From positions 14,542-78,541 of the forward strand of contig CBDCQR010000004.1 in the NCBI GenBank assembly GCA_965220685.1: a stretch of 64,000 nt of DNA. Direction: 5' to 3'. The notes beneath the pieces are model-generated. The model searched no databases. It was not told where the DNA came from and worked only from the letters and a program-made list of their open reading frames with translations. The stretch comes from Alphaproteobacteria bacterium (lineage in GTDB: Bacteria > Pseudomonadota > Alphaproteobacteria > Bin65). The position numbers were made by a program, and so were the translations under genes. This document shows positions 10,985 through 25,968 of the stretch, in pieces (position 1 is the stretch's first letter; the number at the start of each line of letters is the position of its first letter).

Positions 10985-11005
10985 GGCCGGGGTGTGCGGC
11001 CGCAT

Positions 11006-11108
11006 CCCTCGATACGGCCCTCCGGGCCTACTCGGGATGAGGGGAAATGTGAGGAAACCCCAAACCTCTCCCTCACCCTGAGTAGCCGCGAAGCGGCGTA
11101 TCGAAGGG
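11006..11108. repeat. REP/MITE-like palindromic element, family A
   Basis: CCCTCGATACG..CTACTCGGGATGAGG...CCTCACCCTGAGTAG..CGTATCGAAGGG; further copies at 18221 and 57253. Confidence 0.8.
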
Positions 11109-11188
11109 CGGCGGGGGACGCCTCGCGGCGCCAACCGCTGAACCCCGATGGCCGATAATTCCGGCTGACTCTTGCAGGCAACACGCCC

Positions 11189-12373
11189 CTAGATCACCCC
11201 GTCCGCGCGCAAGGCGGCGATCTTCGAGGCGCCGTAGCCCAGCCCTTCGAGAACGCTCTCCGTATCGGCGCCCAGGCCGGGCGCCGGGCGGGCGGGGGCC
11301 GGCTCGGCGGTGCGCACCGGCGGCGCGACCAAGCGATAGGGGCCGTCGGCGCTGTGCTCCACGGTCTGGAGACGGCCGGTCTCGGCGACATAGGGGTTGT
11401 CGAGGGCGGCGGCGACATCGTTGACCGGGGCGGCCGGCACGACGCCGGCGAAGCGTTCCAGCCAGTCGGCGGTGGTGCCGGCCTGCAGGGCATCGTCCAG
11501 CATCCCGGTGATCAGGTCCCGGTTCTCCAGCCGGTCCGGGAAGCGCCGGAAGCGCGGGTCGCCGGCCCATTCCGGCCGGCCGACGGCGCCGCACAGGGCA
11601 GGCCAGAACTTCTCCTTGTTGCACATCAGGAAGATCCAGCCGTCCGCCGTCCTGTAGAGCTGGCAGGGCGTGAGCGACGGGTGGGCCGAGCGCGGCAGGC
11701 GCGGCTGGTTGAAGCCCGCGTTGAGATACCAGGCCGCCAAGTAGCCGGTGTTGTGCAGCGCGACGTCGAACAGGCTGACGTCGATATCCTGCCCCTGCCC
11801 GCTCGCCCGCGCGCCGGTCAGGGCCGCCAGCAGGGCATAGGCCATGGCGAGACCGGTCATCATGTCGACGACGGAGAGGCCAAAGCGCGACGGCGCGCCC
11901 TCCGGCTCGCCGGTCAGGGCGAAATAGCCGGCCTCGGCCTGCATGACATAGTCGAAGCCCGGCCAGGCGGCGCGCGGCCCGTCGCGCCCGTAGGCCGAGA
12001 GATGGGCGCACACGATCTGCGGGTTCGCCGCCTTCAGATGGGCGTAGGTCAGGCCCAGCTTCTCCGGCACGTCGCCGCGCATGTTGCTCGCCAGCGCATC
12101 GGCCGAGCGCACCAGGTCGTGCAGCACGGGCCGGGCCTCGGGCCGGCTCAGGTCCAGCGTCAGGCTTTTCTTGTTGCGGTTGAAGCTGTGGAAGAACTGG
12201 CTGTCGCCGGAGGGAAAGAAATACGGCCCGACGGTGCGCGCCATGTCGCCGCCGTCGTTCGGGTTCTCGATCTTGACGACTTCGGCGCCCTGATCGGCGA
12301 GGAACATGGTGCCGAACGGCCCGGCGCCGTATTGCTCGACCGCGAGGACGCGGACTCCCTCGAGCGGCAGCAT
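11189..12373 (-). CDS. CaiB/BaiF family (class III) CoA-transferase
   Basis: LEGVRVLAVEQYGAGPFGTMFLADQGAEVVKIE, NRNKKSLTLDL, PGFDYVMQAEAG. Confidence 0.92.
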   Translation of the reverse strand: MLPLEGVRVLAVEQYGAGPFGTMFLADQGAEVVKIENPNDGGDMARTVGPYFFPSGDSQFFHSFNRNKKSLTLDLSRPEARPVLHDLVRSADALASNMRGDVPEKLGLTYAHLKAANPQIVCAHLSAYGRDGPRAAWPGFDYVMQAEAGYFALTGEPEGAPSRFGLSVVDMMTGLAMAYALLAALTGARASGQGQDIDVSLFDVALHNTGYLAAWYLNAGFNQPRLPRSAHPSLTPCQLYRTADGWIFLMCNKEKFWPALCGAVGRPEWAGDPRFRRFPDRLENRDLITGMLDDALQAGTTADWLERFAGVVPAAPVNDVAAALDNPYVAETGRLQTVEHSADGPYRLVAPPVRTAEPAPARPAPGLGADTESVLEGLGYGASKIAALRADGVI

Positions 12374-12378
12374 GGCGG

Positions 12379-13530
12379 CTACACCGGGTTCCGCGCGATC
12401 AGCTGCTTCGCGATGATCAGGCGCTGCAATTCGTTGGTGCCCTCGCCGATCGCCAGCAACGGCGCATCGCGGTAGTAGCGCTCGATATCGAACTCCGTGG
12501 AATAGCCGTAGGCGCCGTGGATGCGCATGGCCTCCAGGCTGTTCTCGACCGCCGCCTCGGTGGCGTAGAGCTTGGCCATGCCGGCTTCCATGTCGCAGCG
12601 TTCGCCCCGGTCGTAGGCCTGCGCCGCCGCGCCGGTGAGCAGCCGCGCCGCCTCGACCCGGGTCGCCATGTCGGCGAGCTTGATCTGGATCGCCTGGTGC
12701 TCGGCGATCGGCTTGCCGAATGTCTTGCGCACCTGCGCGTATTCGACCGCCTTTTCCAGGCAGACCCGGGCGATGCCGACGCCGCGCGCCGCGACGTTGA
12801 TGCGGCCCAGTTCGAGGCCGGCGAGGATCTGCTGGAGGCCGCGGCCTTCCTCGCCGCCGACAAGATTGTCGAACGGCACCTGGCAATCGTCGAAGATCAC
12901 CTGCCCGGTATCGACGCCGCGATAGCCCAGCTTCTTCAATTTGCCGGTTTCGACGCCTTCGCCCTGCTCGACCAGCAGCAGGCTCATCCCCCTGTGGCGC
13001 GGCTCGGCCCCGGAATCGGTCTTGACCAGCACGGCGAGGATATCGCCCTCGACGCTGTTGGTGATCCAGGTCTTGGTGCCGTTGACGAGATAGGCGTTGC
13101 CCTTGCGCTCCGCCCTTGTGCGCACGGCCTGGAGATCGGTGCCGCAGTCCGGCTCGGTGAGCGCGATGCCGCCGCGCAGTTCGCCGGTCGCGAATTTCGG
13201 CAGCCAGCGATGCTTCTGCTGGTCGGTGCCGAAGCGCTGGACCGCCGCCGCCATGATGAGATGGGAGTTGACGATGCCGGAGATCGACATCCAGCCCGCG
13301 GTGATCCGCTCGATGATCGCCGAATAGGTCGCCGCCGACAGGCCGAGCCCGCCGTACTCCGGCGCGATGGTGGCGCCGAACAGGCCGAGTTCCTTCATGT
13401 CCTCGACGATGGCGTGGGGGTATGCGTCCTTCGCTTCGAGATCGTGGGCGACCGGCAGGATGCTGCGCTCGACGAAGCGGTCGATGGCGTCGAGGATGGC
13501 GGCGTCGCCGTCGGGACCGGGCGCGTTCAT
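12379..13530 (-). CDS. Acyl-CoA dehydrogenase
   Basis: ALTEPDCGTD, NGTKTWITN, HQAIQIKLADM, HGAYGY, IGEGTNELQR. Confidence 0.92.
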   Translation of the reverse strand: MNAPGPDGDAAILDAIDRFVERSILPVAHDLEAKDAYPHAIVEDMKELGLFGATIAPEYGGLGLSAATYSAIIERITAGWMSISGIVNSHLIMAAAVQRFGTDQQKHRWLPKFATGELRGGIALTEPDCGTDLQAVRTRAERKGNAYLVNGTKTWITNSVEGDILAVLVKTDSGAEPRHRGMSLLLVEQGEGVETGKLKKLGYRGVDTGQVIFDDCQVPFDNLVGGEEGRGLQQILAGLELGRINVAARGVGIARVCLEKAVEYAQVRKTFGKPIAEHQAIQIKLADMATRVEAARLLTGAAAQAYDRGERCDMEAGMAKLYATEAAVENSLEAMRIHGAYGYSTEFDIERYYRDAPLLAIGEGTNELQRLIIAKQLIARNPV

Positions 13531-14051
13531 GAGGATCGGGCGAGCCGGTCGTCGACGCCGAAGCCGCGCCTGGGCACGAGCATGGAGCGCCGGTAGGTCA
13601 TGAACACCGTGCCGTCGGCCTTCGTGCCGGTGGTGCTGGCGATCACGATCCCCTGGTTGGGCCGCGATTGCGATTCGCGCTTCTCCAGCACCTCGGATTC
13701 GGCATAGATCGTGTCGCCGACGAAGACCGGGGCGGTGAGCCGGATATCGGTCCAGCCCAGGTTGGCGACGGCCTTCTGGCTGAGGTCGCTGACGCTCATC
13801 CCGGCGACGATGGAGAGGGTGAGCGCGCTGTTGACCAGCAGCTTCCCGAATTCGCTGTGCTGCGCATACTCCGCATCGAAATGGATCGGATGCGTGTTCA
13901 TGGTGAGCAGCGTGAACCAGGTGTTGTCGGCCTCGCTGATCGTCCGGCCGGGCCGGTGCTCATAGATGTCGCCGACCGTGAAATCCTCGTAGTAGCGCCC
14001 GGCGGACTCGCGGAACCGGCCGGCCGCCACCTCTTCCATCGTCGCGATCAT
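13527..14051 (-). CDS. MaoC family (R)-specific enoyl-CoA hydratase/dehydratase
   Basis: GRYYEDFTVGDIYEHRPGRTISEADN, MNTHPIHFD, PVFVGDTIYAESEVLEKRES. Confidence 0.88.
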   Translation of the reverse strand: MIATMEEVAAGRFRESAGRYYEDFTVGDIYEHRPGRTISEADNTWFTLLTMNTHPIHFDAEYAQHSEFGKLLVNSALTLSIVAGMSVSDLSQKAVANLGWTDIRLTAPVFVGDTIYAESEVLEKRESQSRPNQGIVIASTTGTKADGTVFMTYRRSMLVPRRGFGVDDRLARSS

Positions 14052-14056
14052 GCCGC

Positions 14057-15472
14057 TTACCCGGCGACGGCGCGGATTGCCGGTTCCCCGGCCGGCTGCG
14101 GCGCCGAGAGCCGGAGCACGGCGGAAACGTCGCCGGCTTTCTCCAGCGCCAGCAGGCCGTCGGCGAAGGCCGCGCGGTCCGCCGGCTCCAGATAGGGCGC
14201 CACCAGCCCGTCGAACTTGGTGCGCAGCTCGTCCTCGGTCAGGAAGTTGTCCGGCTCGCCCTTGGGCACGGCGACGAAATCCTCGAACGCGCCGGCCGGG
14301 GTCGTCACCTTCACCGTGGCGGCGAGGTTGGCCGGATATTCGGCCTCCGCCCGCGCATCGACGACCGGGCGGACCTTGCGGTACAGCGCCTTCGCCTGCT
14401 CGTCGGCCAGCAGCGGTTCGTAATCGTCCCACACCAGCCCGCCGTTGATCAGGGCGGCGGCGGCGACGAAGGGCATGGAGAACTGGCCGTCGACGATGCC
14501 TTGCGGGTTCCGCTTGTCGGCGAGCGGGTCGGCGACGATCTTCCAGCCGGTCTCGGGCAGGCCGACCTCGATCTCCTGCACATCCCCGGGCCGGAGGCCG
14601 TGCTTCGCGCGCAGGCCGATGATCGCGTCCATCGCGGCGTGGCCGTAGCGGCAGGACGGGTAGGGCTTGACGGCGATCTGCATGGTCTCCCATTCCGCGC
14701 CAAGGCTGGCGACCGCCTTCGCCGGGTCCGGATCCGGCGCGTGGCTGGCAAGGAAGCCGGCCTTGCCCTCGAAGGCCTGCGCCGGGCCGCGATAACCCTC
14801 GGCGGCCAGGGTCGCCGCCATCAGGCCGCACATGGCGGCGTGGCCGACATGGGAGCGCTTGGTCCAGGCGCCGTCGGCGAGGAACTGCATCGAGCCGGCG
14901 GCCTGGCTGAGGCAGATGCCGAAGGCGCTCTCGATCTGCGCAGCGTCGAGGCCCAGGACGTTGCCCACGGCCGCCGCCGCGCCGAACGCGCCGCAGGTCG
15001 CCGTGGGATGGAAGCCGCGTTCGTAATGGTCGCTGGGGCCGAGCGCGAGGCTGAGCCGGATCTGGACCTCGTAACCCGCGACGATGGCGGCGATGGTTTG
15101 CGCACCGCTCGCGCCGGCCTCTTCCGCCGCGGCGAGCGCCGCCGGCACGATGGGCGCGCTGGCGTGGATCGAGCCGCGGGCGTGGGTGTCGTCGAAATCC
15201 AGCGAATGGGCGAGCGCGCCGTTGACCAGCGCCGCGCCGGCCGCCGTGTAGCGCTCCGGATCGCCGATCGCCGTCGCCGCGCCGCCCGTCATGCCGAGGC
15301 GCTTTACCGCCGCAATCAGGCTGTCGGTCGATTCGGCGTCCCGGCGCGCGCGCAGGGCGATGCCGAGCGTGTCGAAGACCAGCAGCTTGGCGCGCCGGGC
15401 AACCTCCGGCGGCAGATCGCTGTAGGAGAGGCCGGCGGCGAATTCCGCCGCGGTGCGGGTGACGGAGGACAT
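14057..15472 (-). CDS. MmgE/PrpD family protein
   Basis: AHSLDFDDTH, GFHPT, KPYPSCRYGH, PKGEP. Confidence 0.9.
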   Translation of the reverse strand: MSSVTRTAAEFAAGLSYSDLPPEVARRAKLLVFDTLGIALRARRDAESTDSLIAAVKRLGMTGGAATAIGDPERYTAAGAALVNGALAHSLDFDDTHARGSIHASAPIVPAALAAAEEAGASGAQTIAAIVAGYEVQIRLSLALGPSDHYERGFHPTATCGAFGAAAAVGNVLGLDAAQIESAFGICLSQAAGSMQFLADGAWTKRSHVGHAAMCGLMAATLAAEGYRGPAQAFEGKAGFLASHAPDPDPAKAVASLGAEWETMQIAVKPYPSCRYGHAAMDAIIGLRAKHGLRPGDVQEIEVGLPETGWKIVADPLADKRNPQGIVDGQFSMPFVAAAALINGGLVWDDYEPLLADEQAKALYRKVRPVVDARAEAEYPANLAATVKVTTPAGAFEDFVAVPKGEPDNFLTEDELRTKFDGLVAPYLEPADRAAFADGLLALEKAGDVSAVLRLSAPQPAGEPAIRAVAG

Positions 15473-15573
15473 GGGAATACTCCCCGATCGTCGGTTTCGT
15501 TCGGCTGCCCGACCATACCATGCGGGCCGGATCGTTCGACCCTCTTTGTCTGTCGCAGGATCCGGCTTGCCGT

Positions 15574-16248
15574 TCAGGCCGGCGGCAGCGCGATTCCGAA
15601 ATGCCGCTCGAGGATATCGGCGATCAGTTCGTAGCAGGAGCCGACGCGCACGACCTCCAGCGTCATCACGTTGAGCAGGGTCGAGGACGCCCTGTAGGGA
15701 TGGTATTTGCGCAGGCCGTGATCGATCACGATGTCGGCGATGCCGGAAATTTCCGGCTCGATATCCTCGACCCGGAACTTGGTGCCCTTGAGCGACAGGT
15801 TGGCCGACGAGCCGAACAGGGGATGGCCCTCTTCCCGGCTCAGGCGGGAGATTTCCCGGTGGAACGGGCCGGCGTTGAGCAGCATGACGACGGTGCCGTC
15901 CTTCTGGCTGGTGGCGATGGCTTCGCGCGGCAGCTTTGCGAGCAGGGGATGGTCCATGCGCGCCGACGCGATGGCGCCGAGCGGCAGATCGTAATCCTCC
16001 GTGATGCAGGCGACGATCTCGGCGCCGCGCCGGTCGACGACATGGACCTCGCGGTGGATGGCGTTGTCGGCCACCATGGCGTTGAGCTTTGCGGGCGCGC
16101 GCCGCTTGGCCTCGAAAATCCGGCGCAGCGCCGCAGCGCTGCCGCCGATGATCGAATAGCCGACATCCATCGGCAGGATGGCGATGCCGCCGCCTTTGAT
16201 GACATCGAAAGCCCGCCGCGCATCGCCGGCGATATCCGGTCTCGCCAT
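15574..16248 (-). CDS. Non-canonical Sua5/YrdC/YciO family protein (copy 1)
   Basis: GGIAILPMDVGYSI, AKRR (KxR), GSSAN (SxN), SSTLLNV. Confidence 0.7.
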   Translation of the reverse strand: MARPDIAGDARRAFDVIKGGGIAILPMDVGYSIIGGSAAALRRIFEAKRRAPAKLNAMVADNAIHREVHVVDRRGAEIVACITEDYDLPLGAIASARMDHPLLAKLPREAIATSQKDGTVVMLLNAGPFHREISRLSREEGHPLFGSSANLSLKGTKFRVEDIEPEISGIADIVIDHGLRKYHPYRASSTLLNVMTLEVVRVGSCYELIADILERHFGIALPPA

Positions 16249-16359
16249 GGTTCTTCGCTCCATCGCCTGTGGGCGCCCGCCGCGGGCCTTGTGCAATTGC
16301 GCCGCCGCCCTATTGTGGCGCCGCCCCGAAAGGATCGGGGCGCAACAGGGAGGAGCGGC

Positions 16360-17058
16360 GTGTTCGATGGCCGGCCCATCGCGGAAGACGCAGCGCGCAT
16401 TTTCGACACCGTCCGCAGCGGCGGCGTCGCGATCTTTCCGGTCAGCGTCGGCTACGCCATTGTCGGCCACGAGGAAGAATCCGTCCAGCGCATGTACCGC
16501 GCCAAGGAGCGGCCGTTCAGCAAGCCGTGCGGCAACTTCTGCGACTGGCAGCTCTTCACCGAGGCGATCCGGGTGCCGGACCGGGCGCGCGACGCGGTGA
16601 GCACCGTGATCCACGAACATGACCTGCCCTTCTCCATCGTCGCGCCGTTCGACGAGAGCCACCCGGTGATCCGCAGCCTGCCGCCGTTTGCGCTGAAGAA
16701 CGCCACCTTGGCCGGCACGATGGACATGCTGCTCAACGCCGGCCCCCTGCACGACGAGATCGCCCGGCTGGCGCGCGAGAACGCCTATGCCGTGATCGGC
16801 TCGTCGGCCAACCGCTCCGGCACCGGCAGCAAGTTCGTCTACGAGGATATCGAGGCGCAGGTGACGGCGGCGGCCGACCTCTCGGTCGATTACGGCCTGA
16901 CGCCGTTCCACAACGACAGGGGGCTCGGCAGCTCCATCGTCGACCTGATCTCGTGGGAGACCATCCGGGTCGGCGCCGCCTATGACGAAATCTGCGATAT
17001 CCTGCGCGACGGCTTCGATATCGACCTCAAGGCCGTCATGGCCGCGAAAGGAAACTGA
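16360..17058 (+). CDS. Non-canonical Sua5/YrdC/YciO family protein (copy 2)
   Basis: GTG start after GGAGG; GGVAIFPVSVGYAI, AKER, GSSAN, SSIVDL; paralogue of 15574-16248. Confidence 0.72.
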   Translation: MFDGRPIAEDAARIFDTVRSGGVAIFPVSVGYAIVGHEEESVQRMYRAKERPFSKPCGNFCDWQLFTEAIRVPDRARDAVSTVIHEHDLPFSIVAPFDESHPVIRSLPPFALKNATLAGTMDMLLNAGPLHDEIARLARENAYAVIGSSANRSGTGSKFVYEDIEAQVTAAADLSVDYGLTPFHNDRGLGSSIVDLISWETIRVGAAYDEICDILRDGFDIDLKAVMAAKGN

Positions 17059-17060
17059 CC

Positions 17061-17765
17061 ATGGACCGCGAACTGGACGATCTTCAGACGAAACTCAAGG
17101 ACGCCTTCGCCGCCGCGACGGCGCTCTACCGGGAGCGCGGCTTCCAGCGCCGCATCGGCTTCGGCCGCAAGCCGGCGCTGATCAACGTCGACCTCGCCAA
17201 CGCCTGGACCCGGCCGGGCTATCCCTTCACCTGCGAGGGCATCGACGACCGGATCATCCCGGCGACCCGCAGGCTGATCGACGCCTGCCGCGAGAACGGC
17301 CATCCGGTGGTCTACACCACGGTCTGCTACCAGAACCCGGACCCGGACGACCCGCGCACCGACATGGGCCTGTGGCACTACAAGATCCCGATCGAGATCG
17401 CCGACCAGAAGAATGAGGACATCTGGGCGATCGACAGCCGCATCGCGCCGATCGACGGCGAGCAGGTGATGATCAAGAAGCGGGCGAGCGCCTTCCACGG
17501 CACCTATCTCGCCGGCTGGCTGCGCGCCGCCGGGGTCGATACCATCCTGGTCACCGGCGTCACCGCCTCGGCCTGCGTGCGCGCGACGGTCACCGACGGG
17601 CTGGCCGAGGGCTTCCGCCCGATCGCCGTGCGCGAGGCCATCGGCGACCGCATTCCCGGCGCCACCGAATGGAACCTGTTCGACATCGACGCCAAGTTCG
17701 GCGACGTGGAGCCGCTGGAGGCGTGCCTGGCCTATCTGAGGTCGGTGAATTTCAGGAACGATTGA
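17061..17765 (+). CDS. N-carbamoylsarcosine amidase (isochorismatase/cysteine hydrolase family)
   Basis: YRERGFQRRIGFGRKPALINVDLANAWT, DMGLWHYKIP, KKRASAF, TASACVR, WNLFDIDAKFGDVE closely follow the Arthrobacter CSHase pattern as I recall it. Confidence 0.82.
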   Translation: MDRELDDLQTKLKDAFAAATALYRERGFQRRIGFGRKPALINVDLANAWTRPGYPFTCEGIDDRIIPATRRLIDACRENGHPVVYTTVCYQNPDPDDPRTDMGLWHYKIPIEIADQKNEDIWAIDSRIAPIDGEQVMIKKRASAFHGTYLAGWLRAAGVDTILVTGVTASACVRATVTDGLAEGFRPIAVREAIGDRIPGATEWNLFDIDAKFGDVEPLEACLAYLRSVNFRND

Positions 17766-17830
17766 TCAGGGTGAGCGGCGGTGAAGCGTTCCGCGGCCAC
17801 GACGCTCCGGCATTCCGTTATCGATAGACA

Positions 17831-17938
17831 TGCCGCCCCGGACGGCCGCAGGCCGATCCGGGGCCCAGTGCCGACCCGAAAATCCTGCGCCCGTGGCTCT
17901 GGTCCCCGGATTTCCGCTGCGCTCCATCCGGGGTGGCA
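17831..17938. repeat. REP/MITE-like palindromic element, family B
   Basis: Terminal inverted repeats TGCCGCCCCGGA...TCCGGGGTGGCA; second copy at 54060-54159. Confidence 0.8.
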
Positions 17939-17982
17939 CGGCGGGATTTATTGGCGCGTTGTGGCCACGGACTAAGCGTGGC

Positions 17983-18177
17983 TTAGCTGCGGCGAGCGGC
18001 GCGAAGAGCCGGCGTCCGTTTTCCGTCCCGCCTTCGCCGCATCGCCTCAGCGTCGTCCTGCGCCTGCTGCGCAGCGAGATCCTGCTCGGTCGTCGCGTCG
18101 AGAATCGCATGATCGACCCGGCCTTCGGGCAGGCTGCGCGGGTCGTCGGGGTCAATCCTGACGCGCGTCTTGCTCAT
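17983..18177 (-). pseudogene. Truncated XRE/HTH antitoxin-like gene
   Basis: MSKTRVRIDPDDP.SLPEGRVD.A.LDATTE..LAAQQ..DDAEAM resembles the N-terminus of an HTH antitoxin family, but the HTH is absent; lies between two repeat elements. Confidence 0.45.
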
Positions 18178-18220
18178 GGTTCCGAAGTTCCTTCCGGTCG
18201 GCCTTGCGGGCCGGGATGAG

Positions 18221-18338
18221 GCGTCCCTCGATACGGCGCTGGCGCGCCTACTCGGGATGAGGGCAAAATTAGTATTGCTCCTCACCCTGAGTAGCCGCCG
18301 GAGCCGGCGCACCGAAGGGCGGGGCGTACCGAAGGGCG
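18221..18338. repeat. REP/MITE-like palindromic element, family A
   Basis: Closely similar to the reverse complement of 57253-57382. Confidence 0.8.
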
Positions 18339-18356
18339 AGTGCCGCGACCAGCCCC

Positions 18357-20255
18357 CTACTCCGCGGCCAGCTTCATCGGCTGGGCCTGCTGCATCCATT
18401 TCTGGAAGACGGGCTGGCGCGGCGGGTCGAGGCTGGTATCGGCCTTGCAGCGCGCCTTCAGCTCCTCGACCGTGCCGCCGGTGTCGAACAGGGCGACGTC
18501 GCCGCGCTCGGTCGCCATGCGGCTGCGCAGGGTTTCGGTCTCGCGCGCGTCCACGCTCAGATCGTCGTTCAGCACCACGCCGTAGCGCCGCGCGCCGTCG
18601 CGGGTCACCAGCCCGCGCTTCGTATCCAGCGCGACCTGCTCGGCGCTGCGCTCCAGCGGGTCGCCCCAACCGCCGCCGCCCCAGGTGTTGAAGTAGAGCG
18701 TGTCGCCGGGCTCGACATGGACGCGGTCGGCCTTCGATTCCATCCACTGCTCCGAGCCGTCGGCGCGCACCATCAGCTTGGTGCTGCGCCGGCCCGGCAG
18801 GCCGCCGTTGACGCCCCAGGGATGGGTCAGCCAGCGGTCGTCATGGATCGAGATCTCGCCCGGCTCGAGGAACTGGTAGCCCATCGAGAGCCCGTTGCCG
18901 CCGCGGTGCAGGCCGGGTCCGCCGCTGTCGGCGATCGTCTCGTATTTCACGATGCGCAGCGGGAAATAGGCTTCGAGGAACTCGTTCGGCACGTTGGTGA
19001 AGGAGGGCCACAGGGAATGGCCGTCCGGCCCGTCGCCCGCCGGCCGGCCCGGCACGCCGCCGAAGCCGATCTGGTAGAGCTGGTACCACTCGCCGGACTT
19101 GTCGTAGCCCGAATACATGAAGTGCGGGCTGTCGGAGAAGCCGGCGGCGCACAGGGCTTCCGGCGAGCCCTGGCCGAGCAGGCCGCTCATGATGTCGAAG
19201 ATGCGCGCCAGCATGTGGGTGCGCGAAGAGAGCGCGGCCGGGCGGATCGGCTTCAGGATGGTGCCGCGTGGAATGCGCACGTCGACCAGGTCGTAGAAGC
19301 CGTCGTTGAACAGGATCTGCGGATCGAAGATGTTGATGAAGAAGGAGCCGAGGAACATCTTGAACATCTCCTCGTTGAGGAGAAAGTTCACCGAGCTGAT
19401 CGACTGCGGATCGGTGCCCTCGAAATCGAAGATCACCTTCTCGCCCTCGCGCCACATGGTGCAGGCGACCTTGTAGGGCCCCATGCCGAGGCCGTCGTCG
19501 TCGATGAAATCCTCGAAATAACGGCGCGATTCCGGGATCACCATCTGGAGGATCGCGCTCATCGCCCGCTTGTTGCGGTCGAGCATCTCGTCCATCGCCG
19601 CGGCGAGCTCGTCGACGCCGAAGCGCTCGGCCATCTCGTGGACCCTGCGCTCGGCGAGGCGCAGGGCGGCGACCACGGCGTTGAAGTCAGAGCGGTTCCA
19701 GTCCGGCAGGCGGCAGTTGCGCAGGATGAGTTCGAGGATCTCCTCGTTCAGCTTGCCCTTGCGGTAGATCTTGACCGGCGGGATCTGGATGCCTTCCTCG
19801 AAGATCTGCGCCGCGTCGGTCGGCAGGCTGCCCGGCACCTTGCCGCCGATATCTGTCATGTGACCGAACATGGCGGCCCAGGCGACGATCCGGCCGTCGA
19901 TATAGATCGGCATCATGGTCAGCCAGTCGTTGAGATGGCTGATCGCGCCGTTGCACGAATAGGGATCGTTGGTCAGGAAGACGTCGCCTTCCTCGATTTC
20001 CCCGTCATAGCCCTGCTGGAAGCCCCAGAAGAAGGAGCCGAACTGGCCGACCACCATCTTGCCGTCGGCGTTGGCGATCATGGGGAAGGCGTCGTGCTGC
20101 TCGCGGATGCCGGGCGACATGGCGGTGCGGAACAGCACGGCGTCCATCTCCGTGCGCGCGTTGCGCATGGCGTTCTCGATGATGTCGAGGGTGACGGGAT
20201 CGACGTCGACCTTCTTGAACGGGGCGGTATTGGTCTGGATCAGGCGGGCTGGCAT
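18357..20255 (-). CDS. hyuB: Hydantoinase B/oxoprolinase family (N-methylhydantoinase B-like), catalytic motifs intact
   Basis: DPVTLDIIENA, TNDPYSCNGAISHLND, FGHMTDIGG, TWGGGGWGDPLER. Confidence 0.88.
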   Translation of the reverse strand: MPARLIQTNTAPFKKVDVDPVTLDIIENAMRNARTEMDAVLFRTAMSPGIREQHDAFPMIANADGKMVVGQFGSFFWGFQQGYDGEIEEGDVFLTNDPYSCNGAISHLNDWLTMMPIYIDGRIVAWAAMFGHMTDIGGKVPGSLPTDAAQIFEEGIQIPPVKIYRKGKLNEEILELILRNCRLPDWNRSDFNAVVAALRLAERRVHEMAERFGVDELAAAMDEMLDRNKRAMSAILQMVIPESRRYFEDFIDDDGLGMGPYKVACTMWREGEKVIFDFEGTDPQSISSVNFLLNEEMFKMFLGSFFINIFDPQILFNDGFYDLVDVRIPRGTILKPIRPAALSSRTHMLARIFDIMSGLLGQGSPEALCAAGFSDSPHFMYSGYDKSGEWYQLYQIGFGGVPGRPAGDGPDGHSLWPSFTNVPNEFLEAYFPLRIVKYETIADSGGPGLHRGGNGLSMGYQFLEPGEISIHDDRWLTHPWGVNGGLPGRRSTKLMVRADGSEQWMESKADRVHVEPGDTLYFNTWGGGGWGDPLERSAEQVALDTKRGLVTRDGARRYGVVLNDDLSVDARETETLRSRMATERGDVALFDTGGTVEELKARCKADTSLDPPRQPVFQKWMQQAQPMKLAAE

Positions 20256-20269
20256 GGCTGCTGTCCTCC

Positions 20270-22696
20270 CTATCGGCCGTTCATCGGGCGGATGAGGATG
20301 TTGCCGACCTCGTCCACGGCGCCGGTATGGCCGTTCAGGATCAGGGTCGTCGAATCCATCTCGGTGACGATGGCCGGTCCGGCGATGCGGTCGCCGGCCT
20401 TGAGCAGGGCGCGGTCGTAGATCTGCGCCGGGTGTTCGCGGCCTTCGATATAGACCCGCGTCTGCTCGCGGACGGCGCCGGCGGCGTCTCCGGTGCCCTG
20501 CGGCAGCTCCTCGGCCGTCGCCGCGCTTTCCCTGCCCTGCACCAGGGCGCGCAGATTGTAGGATTCGTGCATGGTGTCGAGCCGGAAGGTGAAGAGCTGC
20601 TCGTGCAGCTCGTCGAAGCGGCGCGCGACCTCGCGCAGGCCGCCCTGGGCGAAGTCCTCCGGCGTGATGTCGACGGTGAGCTGCATGCCCTGGCCGTGGT
20701 AGCGCAGGTCGATCTGGTAAAGCGCCGACTGCTCGTTGCCGGGCACGCCCTCGGCATTCAGCGCCTCGGCCGCCTGCCGGGCCAGCGCCTCCAGCGCTTC
20801 GGCGACCTCGGCGTCGGTCGTCTCGTCGAAGCGCCGCACGAAGGTGCGCGAGGCCTCGTCGCGCACCCGCGTCGTCGCATCGCCGTAGGCGCACAGCACG
20901 CCCGGCCCCGGCGGGATGATGACCGGCCAGGAATTCATCAGCCGGCCGAGCGCATTGGCGTGCAGCGGGCCGGCGCCGCCGAAGCCGATGAGCGCAAAAT
21001 CGCGCGGATCGAAGCCCTGCTCGACCGAGACCAGCCGCAGCGCGCCGAACATGTTCTCGTTGACGATGTCGACGATGCCCTCGGCCGCCGCCTTGAGCGG
21101 CAGATCCATCCCCTTGGCGACCTTGCCGACCGCCTCCTCGGCCGCCCGGTAATCGAGCGCCATCTCGCCGCCCAGCCGGGCGCCGGACGGCAGGTAGCCG
21201 AGCACGACGTTGGCGTCGGTCACGGTCGGCTCGCCGCCGCCCTTGCCGTAGGCCGCAGGGCCCGGCTCGGCGCCGGCGCTCTGCGGCCCGACGCGCAACG
21301 CTTTCGTCAACTCCGGCACATAGGCGATCGAGCCGCCGCCAGCGCCGACCGTGCGCACGTCGACCGACGACGCGCGCACCGTCACATCGCCGACCCGCGT
21401 CTCGCGCCGCGTCTGGGCGACGCCTTTCTGGATCAGCGCCACGTCGGTCGAGGTGCCGCCCATGTCGAAGGTCAGCAGGTTGTCGTAGCCGGCCTGCCGG
21501 GCCATCCAGATGGCGCCGGAAACGCCGCCGGCCGGGCCGCTCATCAGCAGGTTGACCGGCGTCGCCTTGGCCGCATCCGCGCTCGCCAAGCCGCCGTCGG
21601 AGCGCAGGATGTGCAGCTGCACGCCGTTCATGCGCCGGTCGAGCTCGGCGTTGAGGCTCTCGATGTAGCGGGAGACCACCGGGCGGATGTAGGAGTTCAC
21701 GACCGTCGTTTCGGTCCGCTCGTATTCGTACATCTCCGGCACGACCTCGGAGGAAATCGAGATCGGCACGCCGGGCAGGATCTCCTCGGCAATGCGCCGG
21801 ATGCGCTGCTCGTGGACGCCGCTGGCATAGGCGTTCATCAGCGAGACGGTCAGCGCCTCGATGCCCTCGCCGCTCAGCCTCTGAAGGTCGCGGCGCAGCG
21901 CGTCCTCGTCCAGCGGCTCGACGATCTCGCCCTTCGCCCCGGTCCGCTCGTCGGCCTCGATGGTCAGTTCCAGCGGCGCCAGGGGATCGGCCTTGTTGAA
22001 GATCACCCAGCCGCCCAGGCCGCCCGGCACATAGGAGCGCGCGATCTGGAGCGTCTGCTTGTAGCCCTTGGTCGTAACCAGGCCGACCCGCGCGCCGGTC
22101 TGCGTCAGGATCGTGTTGGTGGCGACCGTCGTACCGTGCATCACCGCGCCGATATCGGTCGGCCCGATCCCGGCGTAGCCGCAGATGCGCTCGATGCCGT
22201 GCAGCACGCCCTGGGCAGAATCCTGCGGCGTCGAGGGCACCTTGGCGGTCCAGGCGTGGCCGGTTTCCTCCTCGATCAGCAACAGGTCGGTAAAGGTGCC
22301 GCCGACATCGACGCCGAGCCGATAGCCGCCGCCGACGACAGCGCGCCGGCGCGGCCGGGCCATCGGAGCCGGGCGGCGCGCGGCGGCGGCGCTGTCGGGA
22401 AGCGAGCGGGCCTCGCGGGCCTCGATCGCGGCGCCGTCGCCATTGCCTCGGCCGACCTCGGGAACGAACCGTCCGTCGCCGTCGCTGGGCGGCGGCGCGG
22501 GCGCCCGCGCTTCGATGCCGTCGCCGTTCGTGCGGGCGGGAGGCGGCGTCGAAGACGGTTCCGTGGGGGCCGCCGGCCCGCCGGGTTCCGATGCGGGTCT
22601 CGCCGCCTCGCCGTTGCCCAGCTTGTCGATCTGCTCCTGCAGATCGGCGAGTTTGCTGTCGAACCAGTTTGTCAGATCGCTGCCGGAACTGCTCAT
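20270..22696 (-). CDS. hyuA: Hydantoinase A/oxoprolinase family (N-methylhydantoinase A-like) with ~124-aa N-terminal extension
   Basis: GVDVGGTFTD, HGTTVATN, SGPAGG, DMGGTSTDV, GAGGGS, FGGAGPLH. Confidence 0.88.
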   Translation of the reverse strand: MSSSGSDLTNWFDSKLADLQEQIDKLGNGEAARPASEPGGPAAPTEPSSTPPPARTNGDGIEARAPAPPPSDGDGRFVPEVGRGNGDGAAIEAREARSLPDSAAAARRPAPMARPRRRAVVGGGYRLGVDVGGTFTDLLLIEEETGHAWTAKVPSTPQDSAQGVLHGIERICGYAGIGPTDIGAVMHGTTVATNTILTQTGARVGLVTTKGYKQTLQIARSYVPGGLGGWVIFNKADPLAPLELTIEADERTGAKGEIVEPLDEDALRRDLQRLSGEGIEALTVSLMNAYASGVHEQRIRRIAEEILPGVPISISSEVVPEMYEYERTETTVVNSYIRPVVSRYIESLNAELDRRMNGVQLHILRSDGGLASADAAKATPVNLLMSGPAGGVSGAIWMARQAGYDNLLTFDMGGTSTDVALIQKGVAQTRRETRVGDVTVRASSVDVRTVGAGGGSIAYVPELTKALRVGPQSAGAEPGPAAYGKGGGEPTVTDANVVLGYLPSGARLGGEMALDYRAAEEAVGKVAKGMDLPLKAAAEGIVDIVNENMFGALRLVSVEQGFDPRDFALIGFGGAGPLHANALGRLMNSWPVIIPPGPGVLCAYGDATTRVRDEASRTFVRRFDETTDAEVAEALEALARQAAEALNAEGVPGNEQSALYQIDLRYHGQGMQLTVDITPEDFAQGGLREVARRFDELHEQLFTFRLDTMHESYNLRALVQGRESAATAEELPQGTGDAAGAVREQTRVYIEGREHPAQIYDRALLKAGDRIAGPAIVTEMDSTTLILNGHTGAVDEVGNILIRPMNGR

Positions 22697-22709
22697 CGGG
22701 CGTCTCTCG

Positions 22710-23498: not shown

Positions 23499-24560
23499 AT
23501 GGACGCGAGGTCGACAGCTTTTCTGGAAATCATGATCGGCATCGCCGTTGTCGGCCTGCTGGCCTTCCTGGTGCTGCTGCTGGCCGGGCGCATCCGCATG
23601 GCGACGTCCGCCGGCGCGCGCCAGCTCAACATCCGCTGGCCGCAGATCGTTCTGGCGCTCGTCCTGCTCGTCGCCGTCGCCCTGATCGTCGTGTGGCAGT
23701 TTCCGCCGCTCGACGGCGATCCGGCGCAGGCGAAGGCCGACCGGTGGCGCAGCGACCCCGACGCGCTCGCCTTTTTCATCGTGATGCTGGCGGTCGCCGG
23801 CGGCGCGGTCCTCATCTTTCTGGCAACCCTGGTCATCCGGGCCCATCCGCGTCTGACCGCGGCGCCCGCCGGCGAGGAAGAAGCGGCGGACGCGACCGCG
23901 CCCGCCACCGTCGAAGCGCCGTCCGCGGGGCGGCTGTTCGGCCTGCTGCTGCCGGTCGCGGCGATCCTGCTATTGTGCTGGATCGCCCTCAAGCCCGAGC
24001 AGCAATACGCGATTGTGCTGTATCTGCTGTATCCGGCGTCGTTCGCGGTCGCCCTGGTCATGCTGTTCGACAAGGCGACCCGGTCGTGGAGCGCCAAGAA
24101 TGGCGGCGAATCCTTCCGCGAATGGCTGCTCTGCGACCTGCTGGTCTTTTTCCTGATCCTCGGTTTCCTGAACCTGCTGGAGTCGGCGGCGGGCGCAAAA
24201 TACGAGGCGCTGATCTGGGACATGCTGCACCTGGCGGCGTTCTTCCTGGTCTTCTGGCTGCTCGACCGCCGGCTGACGCGGCTCCGCTTCCTGGCCGCCT
24301 ATCTCTACCTGACGCTGCTGCCTATCCTGCTGCTGATCTGGCGCGCGATGCAGGGCGTCCCGGCAGCCAAGGATCCGTCCTGGTGGGAAACGATCTGGCC
24401 GCTCTTCTCCCTCGGCGTCATCTTCTTCATTCTGGAACTGATCGCAGTGATCGCGTCGCGCGACCGGGACAAGCAGGCCGTGCCGGCGATCAAGGACGGC
24501 CTCTATGTCGTCCTCGTCGGCATCGCGCTGATCGCGGCGGTCCCGGCGGCGGAAGGATAG
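23499..24560 (+). CDS. Uncharacterised polytopic membrane protein (roughly 9-10 TM)
   Basis: 353 aa with many hydrophobic helices; 7 bp upstream of the amidase gene. Confidence 0.75.
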   Translation: MDARSTAFLEIMIGIAVVGLLAFLVLLLAGRIRMATSAGARQLNIRWPQIVLALVLLVAVALIVVWQFPPLDGDPAQAKADRWRSDPDALAFFIVMLAVAGGAVLIFLATLVIRAHPRLTAAPAGEEEAADATAPATVEAPSAGRLFGLLLPVAAILLLCWIALKPEQQYAIVLYLLYPASFAVALVMLFDKATRSWSAKNGGESFREWLLCDLLVFFLILGFLNLLESAAGAKYEALIWDMLHLAAFFLVFWLLDRRLTRLRFLAAYLYLTLLPILLLIWRAMQGVPAAKDPSWWETIWPLFSLGVIFFILELIAVIASRDRDKQAVPAIKDGLYVVLVGIALIAAVPAAEG

Positions 24561-24567: not shown

Positions 24568-25968
24568 ATGAACGAACTGGCCTGGATGCCGATCGCCGAC
24601 CTGGCGGAGAATATCCGGAAGAAGCGGGTTTCGCCGGTCGAGGCCGTGGAGGCCTGCCTCGACCGGATCGAGCGGCTGAACGACGGGCTGCGCGCCTTTA
24701 TCTCGGTCTATCCGGACCTGGCGCTGGCCGACGCCCGCGCCGCCGAGGCGACGGTCATGGCGGGCGACGATCCCGGCCCGCTGCACGGCGTGCCGCTGGC
24801 CATCAAGGACCTGTTCGCCGTGCGCGGCATGGTGCGGACCTGCGGCTCGCGCCTGATTGCCGAAGGTCCGGGCGCTGCGGACGCCGAATCCGTCGCCGCC
24901 CTGCGCGCGGCGGGCGGCATCGTCGTCGGCCTCGCCAACCTGCACGAATTTGCCTTCGGCCCGACCGGGATCAACCCGCATTTCGGCACGGCGCAGAACC
25001 CGTGGGACCGCAGCAAGGTGTGCGGCGGATCGAGCAGCGGTTCGGGCTGCGCCGTGGCGGCCGGACTGGTTCCGGGCGCCATGGGCACGGACACCGGCGG
25101 TTCCGTGCGCATCCCGGCAACGCTGTGCGGGATCGTCGGACTGAAACCGACCCACCTGCGCATCAGCCAGCAGGGCATCTATCCGCTCGCCGGCGAGTTC
25201 GATACCGGCGGGCCGATGACCCGCTCGGTCGCCGACACCGCGCTGATGATGGCGGCGCTCGACCCGGCCGGCGGATTCGGCCGGCACCGGGCCCTGCCAT
25301 CGCTCGACGGCATCCGGATCGGCGCGCTGCAATCCCTGTTCGAGAGCGAAATCGACCCGGAAATCGGCAGGCTGACTCGCGCGGCCCTGGCGACGCTCGA
25401 AACGCTGGGCGCGGAGATCGAGCGCCTCGACCTGCCGTTCGCGGACGATGCGGTGGCGGCGTGGACGACGATCGCACTCGGCCGGGTCTACGCCCTGCAC
25501 GGCGCGCGCGCCGAGGCGGCGGACAGCAAGCTCTCGCCCAGCGTCCGCGAACGCGTTCTCACCGGACGGGACATATCCTCAGCGGATGTCGACAAGGCAC
25601 TGGCGATCCAGCAGGCAGTGCAGGCGCAGATATCGGACCTCATGCAGCGGTTCGATGCCTTCGTCCTGCCGACGACGCCGATTCCGGCGGTCGACGCCGC
25701 CGACGGGCAGGGCATCCTGAACGGCGCCCCGGTCGACGGTACGGCGGCGCTCGGGCGGTTGGCCCGCATGGCGTCCTTCACCGGCCAGCCGGCGGTCTCG
25801 GTTCCCAGCGGCCTGACATCCGGCGGACTGCCGGCCGGGCTGCAACTGATCGGCGACTGGAATTGCGACGAGAGACTGCTCGAAATCGCGGCCTGCTATG
25901 AAGCCGCGGGCGGCTGGGCCGGCCGGCGCCCGCCGATGGCCGACGCGGAAGAAAAGCGGGCAGGCTAA
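24568..25968 (+). CDS. Amidase signature family enzyme
   Basis: LHGVPLAIKD, GGSSSGSG, GTDTGGSVRIP. Confidence 0.92.
   Translation: MNELAWMPIADLAENIRKKRVSPVEAVEACLDRIERLNDGLRAFISVYPDLALADARAAEATVMAGDDPGPLHGVPLAIKDLFAVRGMVRTCGSRLIAEGPGAADAESVAALRAAGGIVVGLANLHEFAFGPTGINPHFGTAQNPWDRSKVCGGSSSGSGCAVAAGLVPGAMGTDTGGSVRIPATLCGIVGLKPTHLRISQQGIYPLAGEFDTGGPMTRSVADTALMMAALDPAGGFGRHRALPSLDGIRIGALQSLFESEIDPEIGRLTRAALATLETLGAEIERLDLPFADDAVAAWTTIALGRVYALHGARAEAADSKLSPSVRERVLTGRDISSADVDKALAIQQAVQAQISDLMQRFDAFVLPTTPIPAVDAADGQGILNGAPVDGTAALGRLARMASFTGQPAVSVPSGLTSGGLPAGLQLIGDWNCDERLLEIAACYEAAGGWAGRRPPMADAEEKRAG

What the first reader, a model, noticed from the sequence alone, without database searches (positions are those of the whole stretch)
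15574..17765. Divergent pair of non-canonical YrdC/TsaC paralogues linked to N-carbamoylsarcosine amidase
Seen: two head-to-head YrdC-fold genes keep KxR and SSAN but replace the PT(E/D)TxYG motif with PMDVGY and PVSVGY. One ends 2 bp before the CSHase gene. Established: TsaC and the HypF YrdC domain adenylate carbamates (threonylcarbamoyl-AMP, carbamoyl-AMP). Inference: these enzymes act on an N-carboxy or N-carbamoyl intermediate of hydantoin breakdown, not on t6A synthesis, which would be an undescribed catabolic use of the fold.
Basis: partly seen in the sequence, partly recalled or inferred. Interest (0 to 1): 0.6.

Follow-up and report, generated by a model that had tools for sequence, protein, structure and literature searches.

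The report
Non-tRNA YrdC-fold pair in amide catabolism
Two back-to-back genes encode uncharacterised relatives of the tRNA-modification enzyme TsaC that keep its ATP-binding residues, have lost its threonine pocket, and sit beside ring-amide-degrading genes in many bacteria, so they probably activate a different, still unknown acid.

Summary
YrdC-A (15574-16248, minus) and YrdC-B (16360-17058, plus) are divergent PF01300 genes, 40% identical. Both keep the KxR/SxN tetrad. Three of the five threonine-binding residues of Sua5 are replaced. B stops 2 bp before a gene 57%-like Arthrobacter N-carbamoylsarcosine amidase.

They are not TsaC. They score 42 and 32 bits on TIGR00057 against a cut-off of 123. 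The genome has a separate canonical Sua5. On a tree they fall in a clade split at full support from TsaC/Sua5, YciO and HypF. The clade is large and patchy in distribution, and I found no paper on it.

The link to ring-amide genes holds outside the genus for B. Of 19 loci with B orthologues, 12 carry the same HyuA/HyuB and 14 a CSHase-like cysteine hydrolase. More distant B-like genes sit directly behind MmgE/PrpD genes in HyuAB-PrpD-YrdC-hydrolase operons. A heads an MmgE/PrpD, hydratase, acyl-CoA dehydrogenase and CoA-transferase operon. In other genomes its neighbours vary widely, and it often occurs without B.

The best reading is an ATP-using, adenylate-forming enzyme for a non-threonine carbamate or carboxylate in cyclic-amide and branched-acid catabolism. 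The substrate is unknown. Other first readers of this scan noted similar HyuAB-PrpD-YrdC clusters on other DNA.

The parts
15574..16248 (-). YrdC-A, 224 aa, YrdC/Sua5-fold protein of the new clade (A subclade)
   Evidence: PF01300 45.9 bits. TIGR00057 42 bits against a cut-off of 123.2. AF2 model pLDDT 89.9, Foldseek top hits Sua5 and 3L7V. More than 1600 homologues.
16249..16359 (.). 111-bp divergent intergenic region between the two starts (presumed promoters)
   Evidence: Read from the sequence. No sigma-70-like site and no Rfam match.
16360..17058 (+). YrdC-B, 232 aa, YrdC/Sua5-fold protein of the new clade (B subclade), GTG start with GGGAGG upstream
   Evidence: PF01300 43.5 bits. TIGR00057 32 bits. 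40% identical to A. 251 homologues at E <= 1e-30.
17061..17765 (+). N-carbamoylsarcosine amidase orthologue (isochorismatase-like cysteine hydrolase), starts 2 bp after B
   Evidence: PF00857. 1NBA E = 4.6e-75 with the catalytic Asp, Lys and Cys aligned.
14057..15472 (-). MmgE/PrpD-family protein, 101 bp downstream of YrdC-A on the same strand
   Evidence: PF03972 and PF19305. Nearest solved relatives are IDS epimerase and IRG1/cis-aconitate decarboxylase.
13527..14051 (-). MaoC-type (R)-enoyl-CoA hydratase (RipB/Ich-like, mesaconyl-CoA-hydratase-like)
   Evidence: PF19315 and PF01575. NF038241 230 bits, below its cut-off.
12379..13530 (-). acyl-CoA dehydrogenase
   Evidence: PF00441, PF02771 and PF02770.
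11189..12370 (-). family III CoA-transferase (start approximate)
   Evidence: PF02515 389 bits, domain from residue 175 of the long ORF.
18357..20255 (-). HyuB subunit of an ATP-dependent hydantoinase/lactamase
   Evidence: PF02538 500 bits. Matches PDB 7HK5 N-methylhydantoinase at 2.9e-68 and caprolactamase 6YRA_B at 2.9e-59.
20270..22340 (-). HyuA subunit (ASKHA ATPase module; start approximate)
   Evidence: PF05378, PF01968 and PF19278. The ASKHA assignment of this family comes from PMC8453981.
22710..23330 (-). second isochorismatase-like cysteine hydrolase (start approximate)
   Evidence: PF00857. Nearest PDB matches are CSHase 26ST at 2e-34 and the isochorismatase-family hydrolase 4L07 at 7e-33.
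23499..24560 (+). membrane protein of no clear family, conserved beside the HyuAB-hydrolase block
   Evidence: No Pfam match over cut-off. Syntenic in loci L127, L129, L137, L140, L143, L144, L147 and L170.
24568..25968 (+). amidase-signature amidase
   Evidence: PF01425 337 bits. PDB relatives include GatA, biuret hydrolase and allophanate hydrolase.

Best explanation
YrdC-A and YrdC-B belong to a distinct, widespread and uncharacterised clade of the YrdC/TsaC fold. This clade does not make threonylcarbamoyl-AMP for tRNA. SHOWN: the nucleotide and pyrophosphate tetrad (KxR/SxN) and the fold are invariant in both subclades. The threonine pocket is rebuilt: Thr35 becomes Val, His67 becomes Val or Phe, and Arg121 becomes Leu. 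New clade-invariant residues appear (a DHP histidine and an LLNAGP asparagine). The genes are accessory. B-type genes are syntenic with orthologous HyuA/HyuB ATP-dependent lactamase/hydantoinase genes and with CSHase-like cysteine hydrolases. INFERRED: each protein still binds ATP and forms an acyl- or carbamoyl-adenylate plus PPi, but on a small non-threonine acid produced in cyclic-amide or branched-dicarboxylate catabolism. In this window B would serve the N-methylhydantoin to N-carbamoylsarcosine to sarcosine branch (HyuAB, CSHase). A would serve the adjacent MmgE/PrpD, hydratase, acyl-CoA dehydrogenase and CoA-transferase branch. The substrate could be a carbamate (an N-carboxy compound, as in every characterised YrdC-fold enzyme) or a carbon carboxylate of similar shape. 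Neither has been established.
For: Fold and family: PF01300 at 45.9 and 43.5 bits. The AF2 model of A has pLDDT 89.9. It matches Sua5 3AJE, 3L7V and TmTsaC2 at TM 0.73-0.76.

Not TsaC: TIGR00057 scores are 42 and 32 bits against a cut-off of 123.2. The genome's own canonical Sua5 scores 195.6 bits on PF01300. Across 41 genomes of the class, Sua5 scores 128-205 bits, apparent HypF 134-160, and this clade 24-46. The tree splits this clade from TsaC/Sua5, YciO and HypF at SH-aLRT 100.

Active site: K48, R50, S148, A149, N150, R201 and G203 are invariant across 28 diverse members. They are also invariant within A-type and B-type alignments. Mapping onto the Pa-Sua5 Thr ligands (PMC6004061) shows three of five replaced.

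Context: 12 of 19 B-orthologue loci carry HyuAB at 79-88% identity, and 14 of 19 carry a cysteine hydrolase. Ten have HyuB convergent within 1.6 kb. The own genome has 12 HyuB copies in 4.05 Mb, so any HyuB would lie within 8 kb of a random site about 5% of the time. Independent long contigs show isochorismatase-HyuA-HyuB-B with A divergent. Algihabitans albus has the co-directional order A, B, isochorismatase, DctPQM, HyuA, HyuB. Marinibaculum pumilum has the order HyuA, HyuB, CSH-like, PrpD, YrdC, isochorismatase. Of 34 B-like loci, 26 carry PrpD, and in 13 it lies directly upstream.

Mechanistic precedent: the caprolactamase member of the HyuAB family needs ATP and bicarbonate, and its A subunit is ASKHA-fold (PMC8453981). 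From established knowledge, known YrdC-fold enzymes work with ASKHA partners such as TsaD/Kae1 and the Kae1-like domains of HypF and TobZ. HypF, TobZ, GdmN and NovN appear among the fold hits.
Against: No activity has been measured for any member.

YrdC-A's neighbours outside the genus are very varied: TauD, acyl-CoA dehydrogenase, BKACE, xanthine-dehydrogenase-type enzymes, CoA-transferase with an HMGL-like lyase, and short-chain dehydrogenase (SDR) genes. The gene directly downstream of A is different in most loci. That pattern fits a generic helper or a non-pathway role at least as well as a pathway enzyme.

A occurs without B in three of five genomes checked.

B and HyuB are usually convergent, so they are not co-transcribed.

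No step in the textbook creatinine/N-methylhydantoin route needs an adenylating enzyme.
Confidence: 0.5

Rival explanations
1. They are ordinary, redundant TsaC-type threonylcarbamoyl-AMP synthases that happen to lie in a catabolic island.
For: The KxR/SxN tetrad used in the literature to recognise functional TsaC/Sua5 is complete. JGI annotates relatives as TsaC/SUA5/YrdC. E. coli YciO, another paralogue, shows trace TC-AMP synthesis in vitro (PMC12506659).
Against: TIGR00057 scores of 42 and 32 bits fall far short of the 123.2 cut-off. Thr35, His67 and Arg121 equivalents are replaced by Val, Val/Phe and Leu. The clade is separate at SH-aLRT 100. A canonical Sua5 is present in the genome. Distribution is patchy: 17 of 41 relatives carry the clade, while nearly every genome has a Sua5.
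Confidence: 0.04
2. They adenylate a carbon carboxylate. The candidates are C4-C5 dicarboxylates or their half-amides (itaconate, methylsuccinate, citramalate or maleamate type), which are isosteric with N-carboxy-amino acids. The adenylate would prime or feed the CoA-transferase and lyase pathway, much as the ligase CaiC primes the CaiB cycle. On this reading they do not act on carbamates.
For: In this window A is the first gene of a PrpD, Ich, acyl-CoA dehydrogenase and CoA-transferase operon. Tight operons elsewhere read A, CoA-transferase, HMGL-like lyase (L090, 13-bp gap). Others read A, CoAT, HMGL, B (L159) and B, CoAT, HMGL, amidase, PrpD (L168). Distant clade members are fused to HMGL-like and HpcH/HpaI lyases. 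The rebuilt pocket is more hydrophobic.
Against: No YrdC-fold enzyme is known to activate a carbon acid or to make a thioester. CoA-transferases in the same operons already provide activation. The fused forms are only 27-31% identical, and one is archaeal with unrelated neighbours. The CaiC analogy is from memory.
Confidence: 0.2
3. They are non-catalytic or generic companions. Either they are nucleotide-sensing or accessory subunits (for HyuAB or MmgE/PrpD enzymes), or they are housekeeping enzymes that dispose of a common by-product. Either role would explain why A heads many unrelated catabolic operons.
For: A is 60-70% identical across Alpha- and Betaproteobacteria, yet the gene directly downstream differs in most loci: 48 of 63 match none of 23 reference families, and the downstream ORFs are mostly singletons. 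Two loci (L027, L038) place one YrdC-like gene beside each of two PrpD-like genes. Carboxylases of the HyuAB family have extra small subunits (PMC8453981).
Against: The catalytic tetrad and other pocket residues are invariant in both subclades, which argues for retained chemistry.
Confidence: 0.2
4. They are YciO-like proteins with an RNA-related role.
For: The xGY form of the first motif resembles YciO's PTDSGYA. The YciO structure 1K7J is a good fold match.
Against: E. coli YciO falls on the TsaC/Sua5/HypF side of the SH-aLRT 100 split. In the alignment E. coli YciO reads RQL where these proteins have KxR and SLM where they have SAN. No rnm (RNase AM) or RNA gene is adjacent; all neighbours are catabolic.
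Confidence: 0.03

Closest known systems
TsaC/Sua5 L-threonylcarbamoyladenylate synthase (EC 2.7.7.87; PDB 3AJE, 6F87, 9DSQ, 1HRU)
   Same: Same fold (TM 0.73-0.76 to Sua5 and TsaC2). Same KxR/SxN tetrad. The Ser181 and Arg195 equivalents and the R-x-G motif are kept.
   Different: Identity is only 19-24%. Thr35, His67 and Arg121 equivalents are replaced. There are insertions of about 9 and 3 residues and a C-terminal helix of about 20 residues. It forms a separate clade, is accessory rather than universal, and sits in a catabolic context.
SMU.1377c of Streptococcus mutans (PDB 3L7V), a structural-genomics protein of unknown function
   Same: It is the best sequence match in the PDB for both A (3.3e-10) and B (7.3e-07). 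It shares the P-x-x-VGY form of the first motif, K-x-R-x-x-x-K and SSAN.
   Different: It is 295 aa with a longer C-terminus, about 20% identical in the structural alignment, and from a Firmicute. No function is known and I found no paper.
YciO (E. coli b1267, PDB 1K7J)
   Same: It is a single-domain PF01300 paralogue that is not TsaC in vivo (PMC12506659). It has an xGY-type first motif.
   Different: It lies on the other side of the deepest split in the tree. In the alignment E. coli YciO reads RQL where these proteins have KxR and SLM where they have SAN. It is linked to rnm and rRNA maturation, not to catabolic genes.
YrdC-like domains of HypF, TobZ, GdmN and NovN (carbamoyl-AMP formation)
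   Same: Same fold. They adenylate a carbamate and hand it to an ASKHA-fold partner. Here the recurrent neighbour HyuA is also ASKHA-fold.
   Different: Structural matches are weaker (TM 0.43-0.63). Those domains are fused to Kae1-like domains and serve biosynthesis or maturation. A and B are free-standing, and no Kae1-like gene was recognised among the annotated neighbours.

Membership tests
TsaC/Sua5 (TIGR00057, EC 2.7.7.87) | YrdC/Sua5 fold, PF01300 match | tested here: met
   45.9 and 43.5 bits against a cut-off of 25.1. AF2 model plus Foldseek.
TsaC/Sua5 (TIGR00057, EC 2.7.7.87) | KxR/SxN catalytic tetrad | tested here: met
   K48, R50, S148 and N150 are invariant.
TsaC/Sua5 (TIGR00057, EC 2.7.7.87) | Threonine-binding residues (Pa-Sua5 Thr35, His67, Arg121, Ser181, Arg195; PMC6004061) | tested here: not met
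   Thr35 becomes Val, His67 becomes Val (A) or Phe (B), and Arg121 becomes Leu. Ser181 and Arg195 are kept.
TsaC/Sua5 (TIGR00057, EC 2.7.7.87) | Equivalog HMM score at or above the curated cut-off | tested here: not met
   42 and 32 bits against 123.2.
TsaC/Sua5 (TIGR00057, EC 2.7.7.87) | Placement inside the TsaC/Sua5 clade | tested here: not met
   Separated by a branch with SH-aLRT 100.
TsaC/Sua5 (TIGR00057, EC 2.7.7.87) | Near-universal, core distribution | tested here: not met
   The clade is found in 17 of 41 relatives, while a canonical Sua5 is in 40 of 41 class genomes, the own genome included.
TsaC/Sua5 (TIGR00057, EC 2.7.7.87) | TC-AMP synthesis and tsaC complementation | not testable with these tools
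   Needs an enzyme assay or genetics.
YciO | Groups with YciO; rnm neighbour | tested here: not met
   E. coli YciO lies on the canonical side of the split, although its exact place there is unresolved. No rnm-like gene is among the annotated neighbours.
HypF/TobZ-type carbamoyl-AMP-forming YrdC-like domain | Fused to or adjacent to a Kae1-like (ASKHA) transferase domain | tested here: inconclusive
   A and B are free-standing at 224 and 232 aa, and no Kae1-like domain was recognised among the annotated neighbours. The recurrent neighbour HyuA is an ASKHA-fold ATPase of another family.
N-carbamoylsarcosine amidase (the neighbour 17061-17765) | Isochorismatase-like fold with an Asp-Lys-Cys triad and close similarity to the Arthrobacter enzyme | tested here: met
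   1NBA E = 4.6e-75. The aligned VDlaN, kKrASAF and TGvTAsaCVR segments keep the triad.

The most novel reading that the evidence does not exclude
This clade is a third functional branch of the YrdC fold. Like TsaC with TsaD, or the HypF and TobZ domains, it would work with an ASKHA-fold partner. Here the partner would be the HyuA subunit of ATP- and bicarbonate-dependent lactamases/hydantoinases, together with MmgE/PrpD proteins. It would adenylate an N-carboxylated or half-amide ring-opening intermediate. That would make HyuAB-PrpD-YrdC-cysteine-hydrolase an undescribed multi-enzyme route for five-membered cyclic amides or imides (hydantoins, succinimide or maleimide types) leading into branched-dicarboxylate CoA metabolism.
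Probability: 0.15. Interest if true: 0.8.

Novelty: new variant of a known kind. Interest (0 to 1): 0.55.

Why it matters
COG0009/PF01300 is usually treated as TsaC/Sua5 plus the enigmatic YciO. This clade passes the KxR/SxN filter used to call functional TsaC and is annotated as such in public data. It nevertheless has a different pocket, a different phylogenetic position and a catabolic context. Three things follow from recognising it. First, it prevents mis-annotation. Second, it offers a tractable case of neofunctionalisation of one of the oldest enzyme folds. Third, it marks a recurrent, undescribed gene cluster (HyuAB, cysteine hydrolases, MmgE/PrpD, CoA-transferase and lyase) in marine, sponge-associated and freshwater Proteobacteria whose substrate is unknown. 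Cultured carriers exist for testing: Algihabitans albus ac2 and Marinibaculum pumilum KCTC 42964.

Tried and rejected
- Complex prediction of A with B (alignments A2 and A3) gave no verdict, score 0.00. This is not evidence either way.
- Two sponge metatranscriptome runs (contigs) cover the CSHase, HyuB and PrpD genes but not 15997-16904. This shows nothing about expression of the pair.
- An Rfam scan of 11000-26000 found nothing.
- The promoter and terminator consensus scan of 15300-18400 found nothing.
- Literature searches found nothing relevant. They covered YrdC with hydantoinase, TC-AMP synthase with N-methylhydantoinase, 3L7V, 'YwlC family protein', and hydantoinase B with PrpD, isochorismatase and CoA-transferase.
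- A search for longer, fused relatives with the clade profile found one protein with no extra Pfam domain.
- The fused forms from the representative search (HMGL-like, HpcH/HpaI, TENA/PqqC-like) are distant. One lies in an archaeal contig with unrelated neighbours. I use them only as a weak lead.
- An obligate A-B heterodimer is rejected for A. Three of five genomes checked have A alone.
- The ESM Atlas look-up only returned generic PF01300 clusters.
- A fixed operon partner for A was sought and not found.
Full report
**What is there.** The region holds two divergent genes. YrdC-A runs 15574-16248 on the minus strand and encodes 224 aa. YrdC-B runs 16360-17058 on the plus strand and encodes 232 aa; it starts at a GTG behind GGGAGG. 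The two starts are 111 bp apart. Both match Pfam PF01300 (Sua5_yciO_yrdC) end to end, at 45.9 and 43.5 bits. They are 40% identical to each other.

B's stop ends at 17058, and the next gene starts at 17061. That gene is an isochorismatase-like hydrolase. It matches Arthrobacter N-carbamoylsarcosine amidohydrolase (1NBA) at E = 4.6e-75, with the Asp, Lys and Cys catalytic positions aligned.

**Surroundings.** A is the first gene of a minus-strand run:
- MmgE/PrpD-family protein, 14057-15472
- MaoC-type enoyl-CoA hydratase (RipB/Ich-like), 13527-14051
- acyl-CoA dehydrogenase, 12379-13530
- family III CoA-transferase, about 11189-12370

To the right of B and the CSHase lie:
- HyuB (18357-20255) and HyuA (20270 to about 22340). 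The best PDB relatives are an N-methylhydantoinase, 7HK5, and caprolactamase, 6YRA.
- a second CSHase/maleamate-amidase-like hydrolase (22710 to about 23330)
- a membrane protein of no family (23499-24560)
- an amidase-signature enzyme (24568-25968)

So B faces a plausible N-methylhydantoin to N-carbamoylsarcosine to sarcosine module. A faces a branched-dicarboxylate/CoA-ester module.

**Not TsaC, YciO or HypF.** Five lines of evidence agree.
- On the TsaC equivalog model TIGR00057 the proteins score 42 and 32 bits against a cut-off of 123.2.
- The genome has a separate canonical Sua5, at 195.6 bits on PF01300.
- Across 41 genomes of the class the PF01300 scores fall in separate ranges: Sua5 128-205 bits, matches in 783-848-aa frames (apparently HypF) 134-160, and this clade 24-46.
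- A phmmer search of B against 1.84 billion cluster representatives found only 359 hits at E <= 0.001. Most of the universal TsaC/Sua5 family is therefore out of reach.
- A maximum-likelihood tree had 67 rows: 28 clade members, 6 fused forms, 30 Sua5 domains of the class and of this genome, and E. coli TsaC, YciO and the HypF YrdC domain. It splits this clade from everything characterised at SH-aLRT 100. A and B fall in different subclades. One canonical Sua5 row (L106) comes from the unpublished genome G058. No conclusion depends on it.

**Active site.** Twenty-eight diverse members were aligned. The invariant residues include K48 and R50 (KxR), K54, S148, A149 and N150 (SAN), D176 and G178, and R201 and G203. 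Also invariant or nearly so are clade-specific H100 (DHP), T119, N125 and G127 (LLNAGP). Both the A-type and B-type alignments keep them.

Pichard-Kostuch et al. (PMC6004061) list the threonine ligands of P. abyssi Sua5 as Thr35, His67, Arg121, Ser181 and Arg195. In an alignment with this genome's own Sua5 and E. coli TsaC, the equivalents here are as follows:

| Pa-Sua5 ligand | In A and B |
|---|---|
| Thr35 | Val |
| His67 | Val (A), Phe (B) |
| Arg121 | Leu |
| Ser181 | Ser |
| Arg195 | Arg |

The ATP/PPi apparatus is therefore kept, while the substrate pocket is rebuilt and more hydrophobic.

The AF2 model of A is confident (pLDDT 89.9). It matches Sua5, TsaC2 and the uncharacterised S. 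mutans protein 3L7V best. YciO, HypF, TsaC and the TobZ, GdmN and NovN domains rank lower. 3L7V is also the best sequence hit and shares the P-x-x-VGY motif.

**Distribution.** The A query finds more than 1600 proteins and the B query 251 at E <= 1e-30. They occur in Alpha-, Beta- and some Gammaproteobacteria, in Mycolicibacterium and in other MAGs. All 12 genomes of the same genus keep the divergent pair, but only 5 of 23 genera among the relatives have the clade. It is an accessory gene family.

**Context of B.** I took 19 loci outside the genus with a B orthologue (60-85% identity) and at least 8 kb of flank. Fourteen carry a CSHase-like cysteine hydrolase. Twelve carry HyuA/HyuB that are 79-88% identical to the window's. 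Ten carry A. In ten, HyuB is convergent within 1.6 kb of B.

This genome has 12 HyuB copies in 4.05 Mb. Any HyuB would therefore lie within 8 kb of a random point about 5% of the time, and one particular orthologue far less often.

Long contigs with called genes show isochorismatase-HyuA-HyuB next to B, with A divergent. In Algihabitans albus the genes are co-directional: A, B, isochorismatase, DctP, DctQ, DctM, HyuA, HyuB, behind a LysR gene.

More distant B-like genes (42-59% identity, 34 loci) have these neighbours:
- MmgE/PrpD in 26 loci, directly upstream in 13
- HyuAB in 17
- cysteine hydrolase, amidase and CoA-transferase in 16 each
- an HMGL-like lyase in 15
- a PEP-mutase/isocitrate-lyase-family gene in 11

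Marinibaculum pumilum has a tight run of HyuA, HyuB, CSH-like, PrpD, YrdC and isochorismatase.

**Context of A.** A behaves differently. In 63 loci (the genus collapsed to one), the families within 8 kb are mixed: TauD 20, B 15, short-chain dehydrogenase (SDR) 14, PrpD 13, HyuAB 12, TRAP transporter 11, amidase 10. The gene directly downstream matches none of 23 reference families in 48 loci. These downstream ORFs are mostly singletons when clustered.

Examples include:
- A followed by CoA-transferase and an HMGL-like lyase, with a 13-bp gap
- A followed by SnoaL and a xanthine-dehydrogenase-type enzyme
- A followed by polysaccharide deacetylase and an aminotransferase, beside PrpD, HyuAB and amidase
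- A divergent from a BKACE and dioxygenase operon in Roseomonas ponticola

Three of five genomes checked have A and no second clade member, so A does not need B. Yet A is 60-70% identical across classes. This pattern fits either a conserved chemistry applied to a common type of intermediate, or a generic or accessory role.

**How it most likely works.** Every characterised YrdC-fold enzyme binds ATP and forms an adenylate of a carbamate with release of PPi: TC-AMP in TsaC/Sua5, and carbamoyl-AMP in HypF and TobZ-type enzymes. Each works with an ASKHA-fold partner (TsaD/Kae1, or Kae1-like domains). This is established knowledge.

The tetrad and fold are invariant here. I therefore infer that A and B are still adenylate-forming enzymes, with a substrate other than threonine. 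Two facts from the caprolactamase paper (PMC8453981) make the association with HyuAB chemically suggestive. First, the HyuA-type subunit has an ASKHA ATPase module. Second, caprolactamase needs bicarbonate as well as ATP, and N-carboxylated intermediates are among the mechanisms the authors considered.

This suggests a carbon carboxylate of similar shape, such as a branched C4-C5 dicarboxylate or half-amide. Nothing available here decides between the two. A non-catalytic or generic helper role also remains open.

**Verdict.** The genes are real and the description is accurate. They are members of a large, undescribed branch of an ancient fold. Calling them TsaC is wrong. Calling them catabolic is well supported by context for B and loosely for A. 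The specific link to N-carbamoylsarcosine is local to this genus. I rate this a new variant of a known kind, of moderate to high interest.

Noticed in passing
window 17766-18356 (intergenic, between CSHase and HyuB): A 64-aa ORF lies on the minus strand (17983-18177, starting MSKTRVRIDPDD) with no Pfam match. Contigs from two sponge metatranscriptome runs pile up at 18040-18266 (summed depth 242 and 90, against 1-50 nearby). Many loose ends fall at 18221/18222 and 18263. This could be a repeated element or an abundant small transcript.
   Followed up: partly
window 11189-15472 (minus strand): The set PrpD-like, RipB/Ich-like hydratase, acyl-CoA dehydrogenase and family III CoA-transferase resembles, from memory, the extended itaconate/C5-dicarboxylate cluster of Pseudomonas aeruginosa. 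No lyase gene was seen in this run. The PrpD-like protein is nearest to IDS epimerase and IRG1, not to PrpD proper.
   Followed up: partly
whole genome G000: There are twelve Hydantoinase_B matches in a 4.05-Mb genome, two of them in this window. This is an unusually large family of ATP-dependent lactamase/hydantoinase genes.
   Followed up: no
window 23499-24560 with 24568-25968; loci L127, L129, L137, L140, L143, L144, L147, L170: A 353-aa membrane protein with no Pfam family is conserved next to the isochorismatase-HyuA-HyuB block, and an amidase-signature gene follows it in this window and in L127 and L137. It is a candidate substrate transporter of unknown type.
   Followed up: no
L027 3601-7814 and L038: Two YrdC-like genes are each paired with their own MmgE/PrpD gene: A then PrpD on one strand, PrpD then B on the other. 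This suggests a YrdC-PrpD functional unit.
   Followed up: partly
P0231, P0239 (L084), P0246, P0257 (L086), P0168: Distant clade members are fused to other domains: HMGL-like plus HCS_D2 (one in an archaeal contig), HpcH/HpaI aldolase-lyase (about 880 aa with an unassigned C-terminal half), or a TENA/PqqC haem-oxygenase-like domain.
   Followed up: partly
literature: PMC10321239; Atlas cluster: The 'TsaC' with a complete KxR/SxN tetrad reported in Leotiomyceta fungi beside their Sua5 is most similar to Actinobacteria and Proteobacteria. It may belong to this clade rather than to true TsaC. An ESM Atlas cluster commonest in Ascomycota scores 0.97 with YrdC-A.
   Followed up: no
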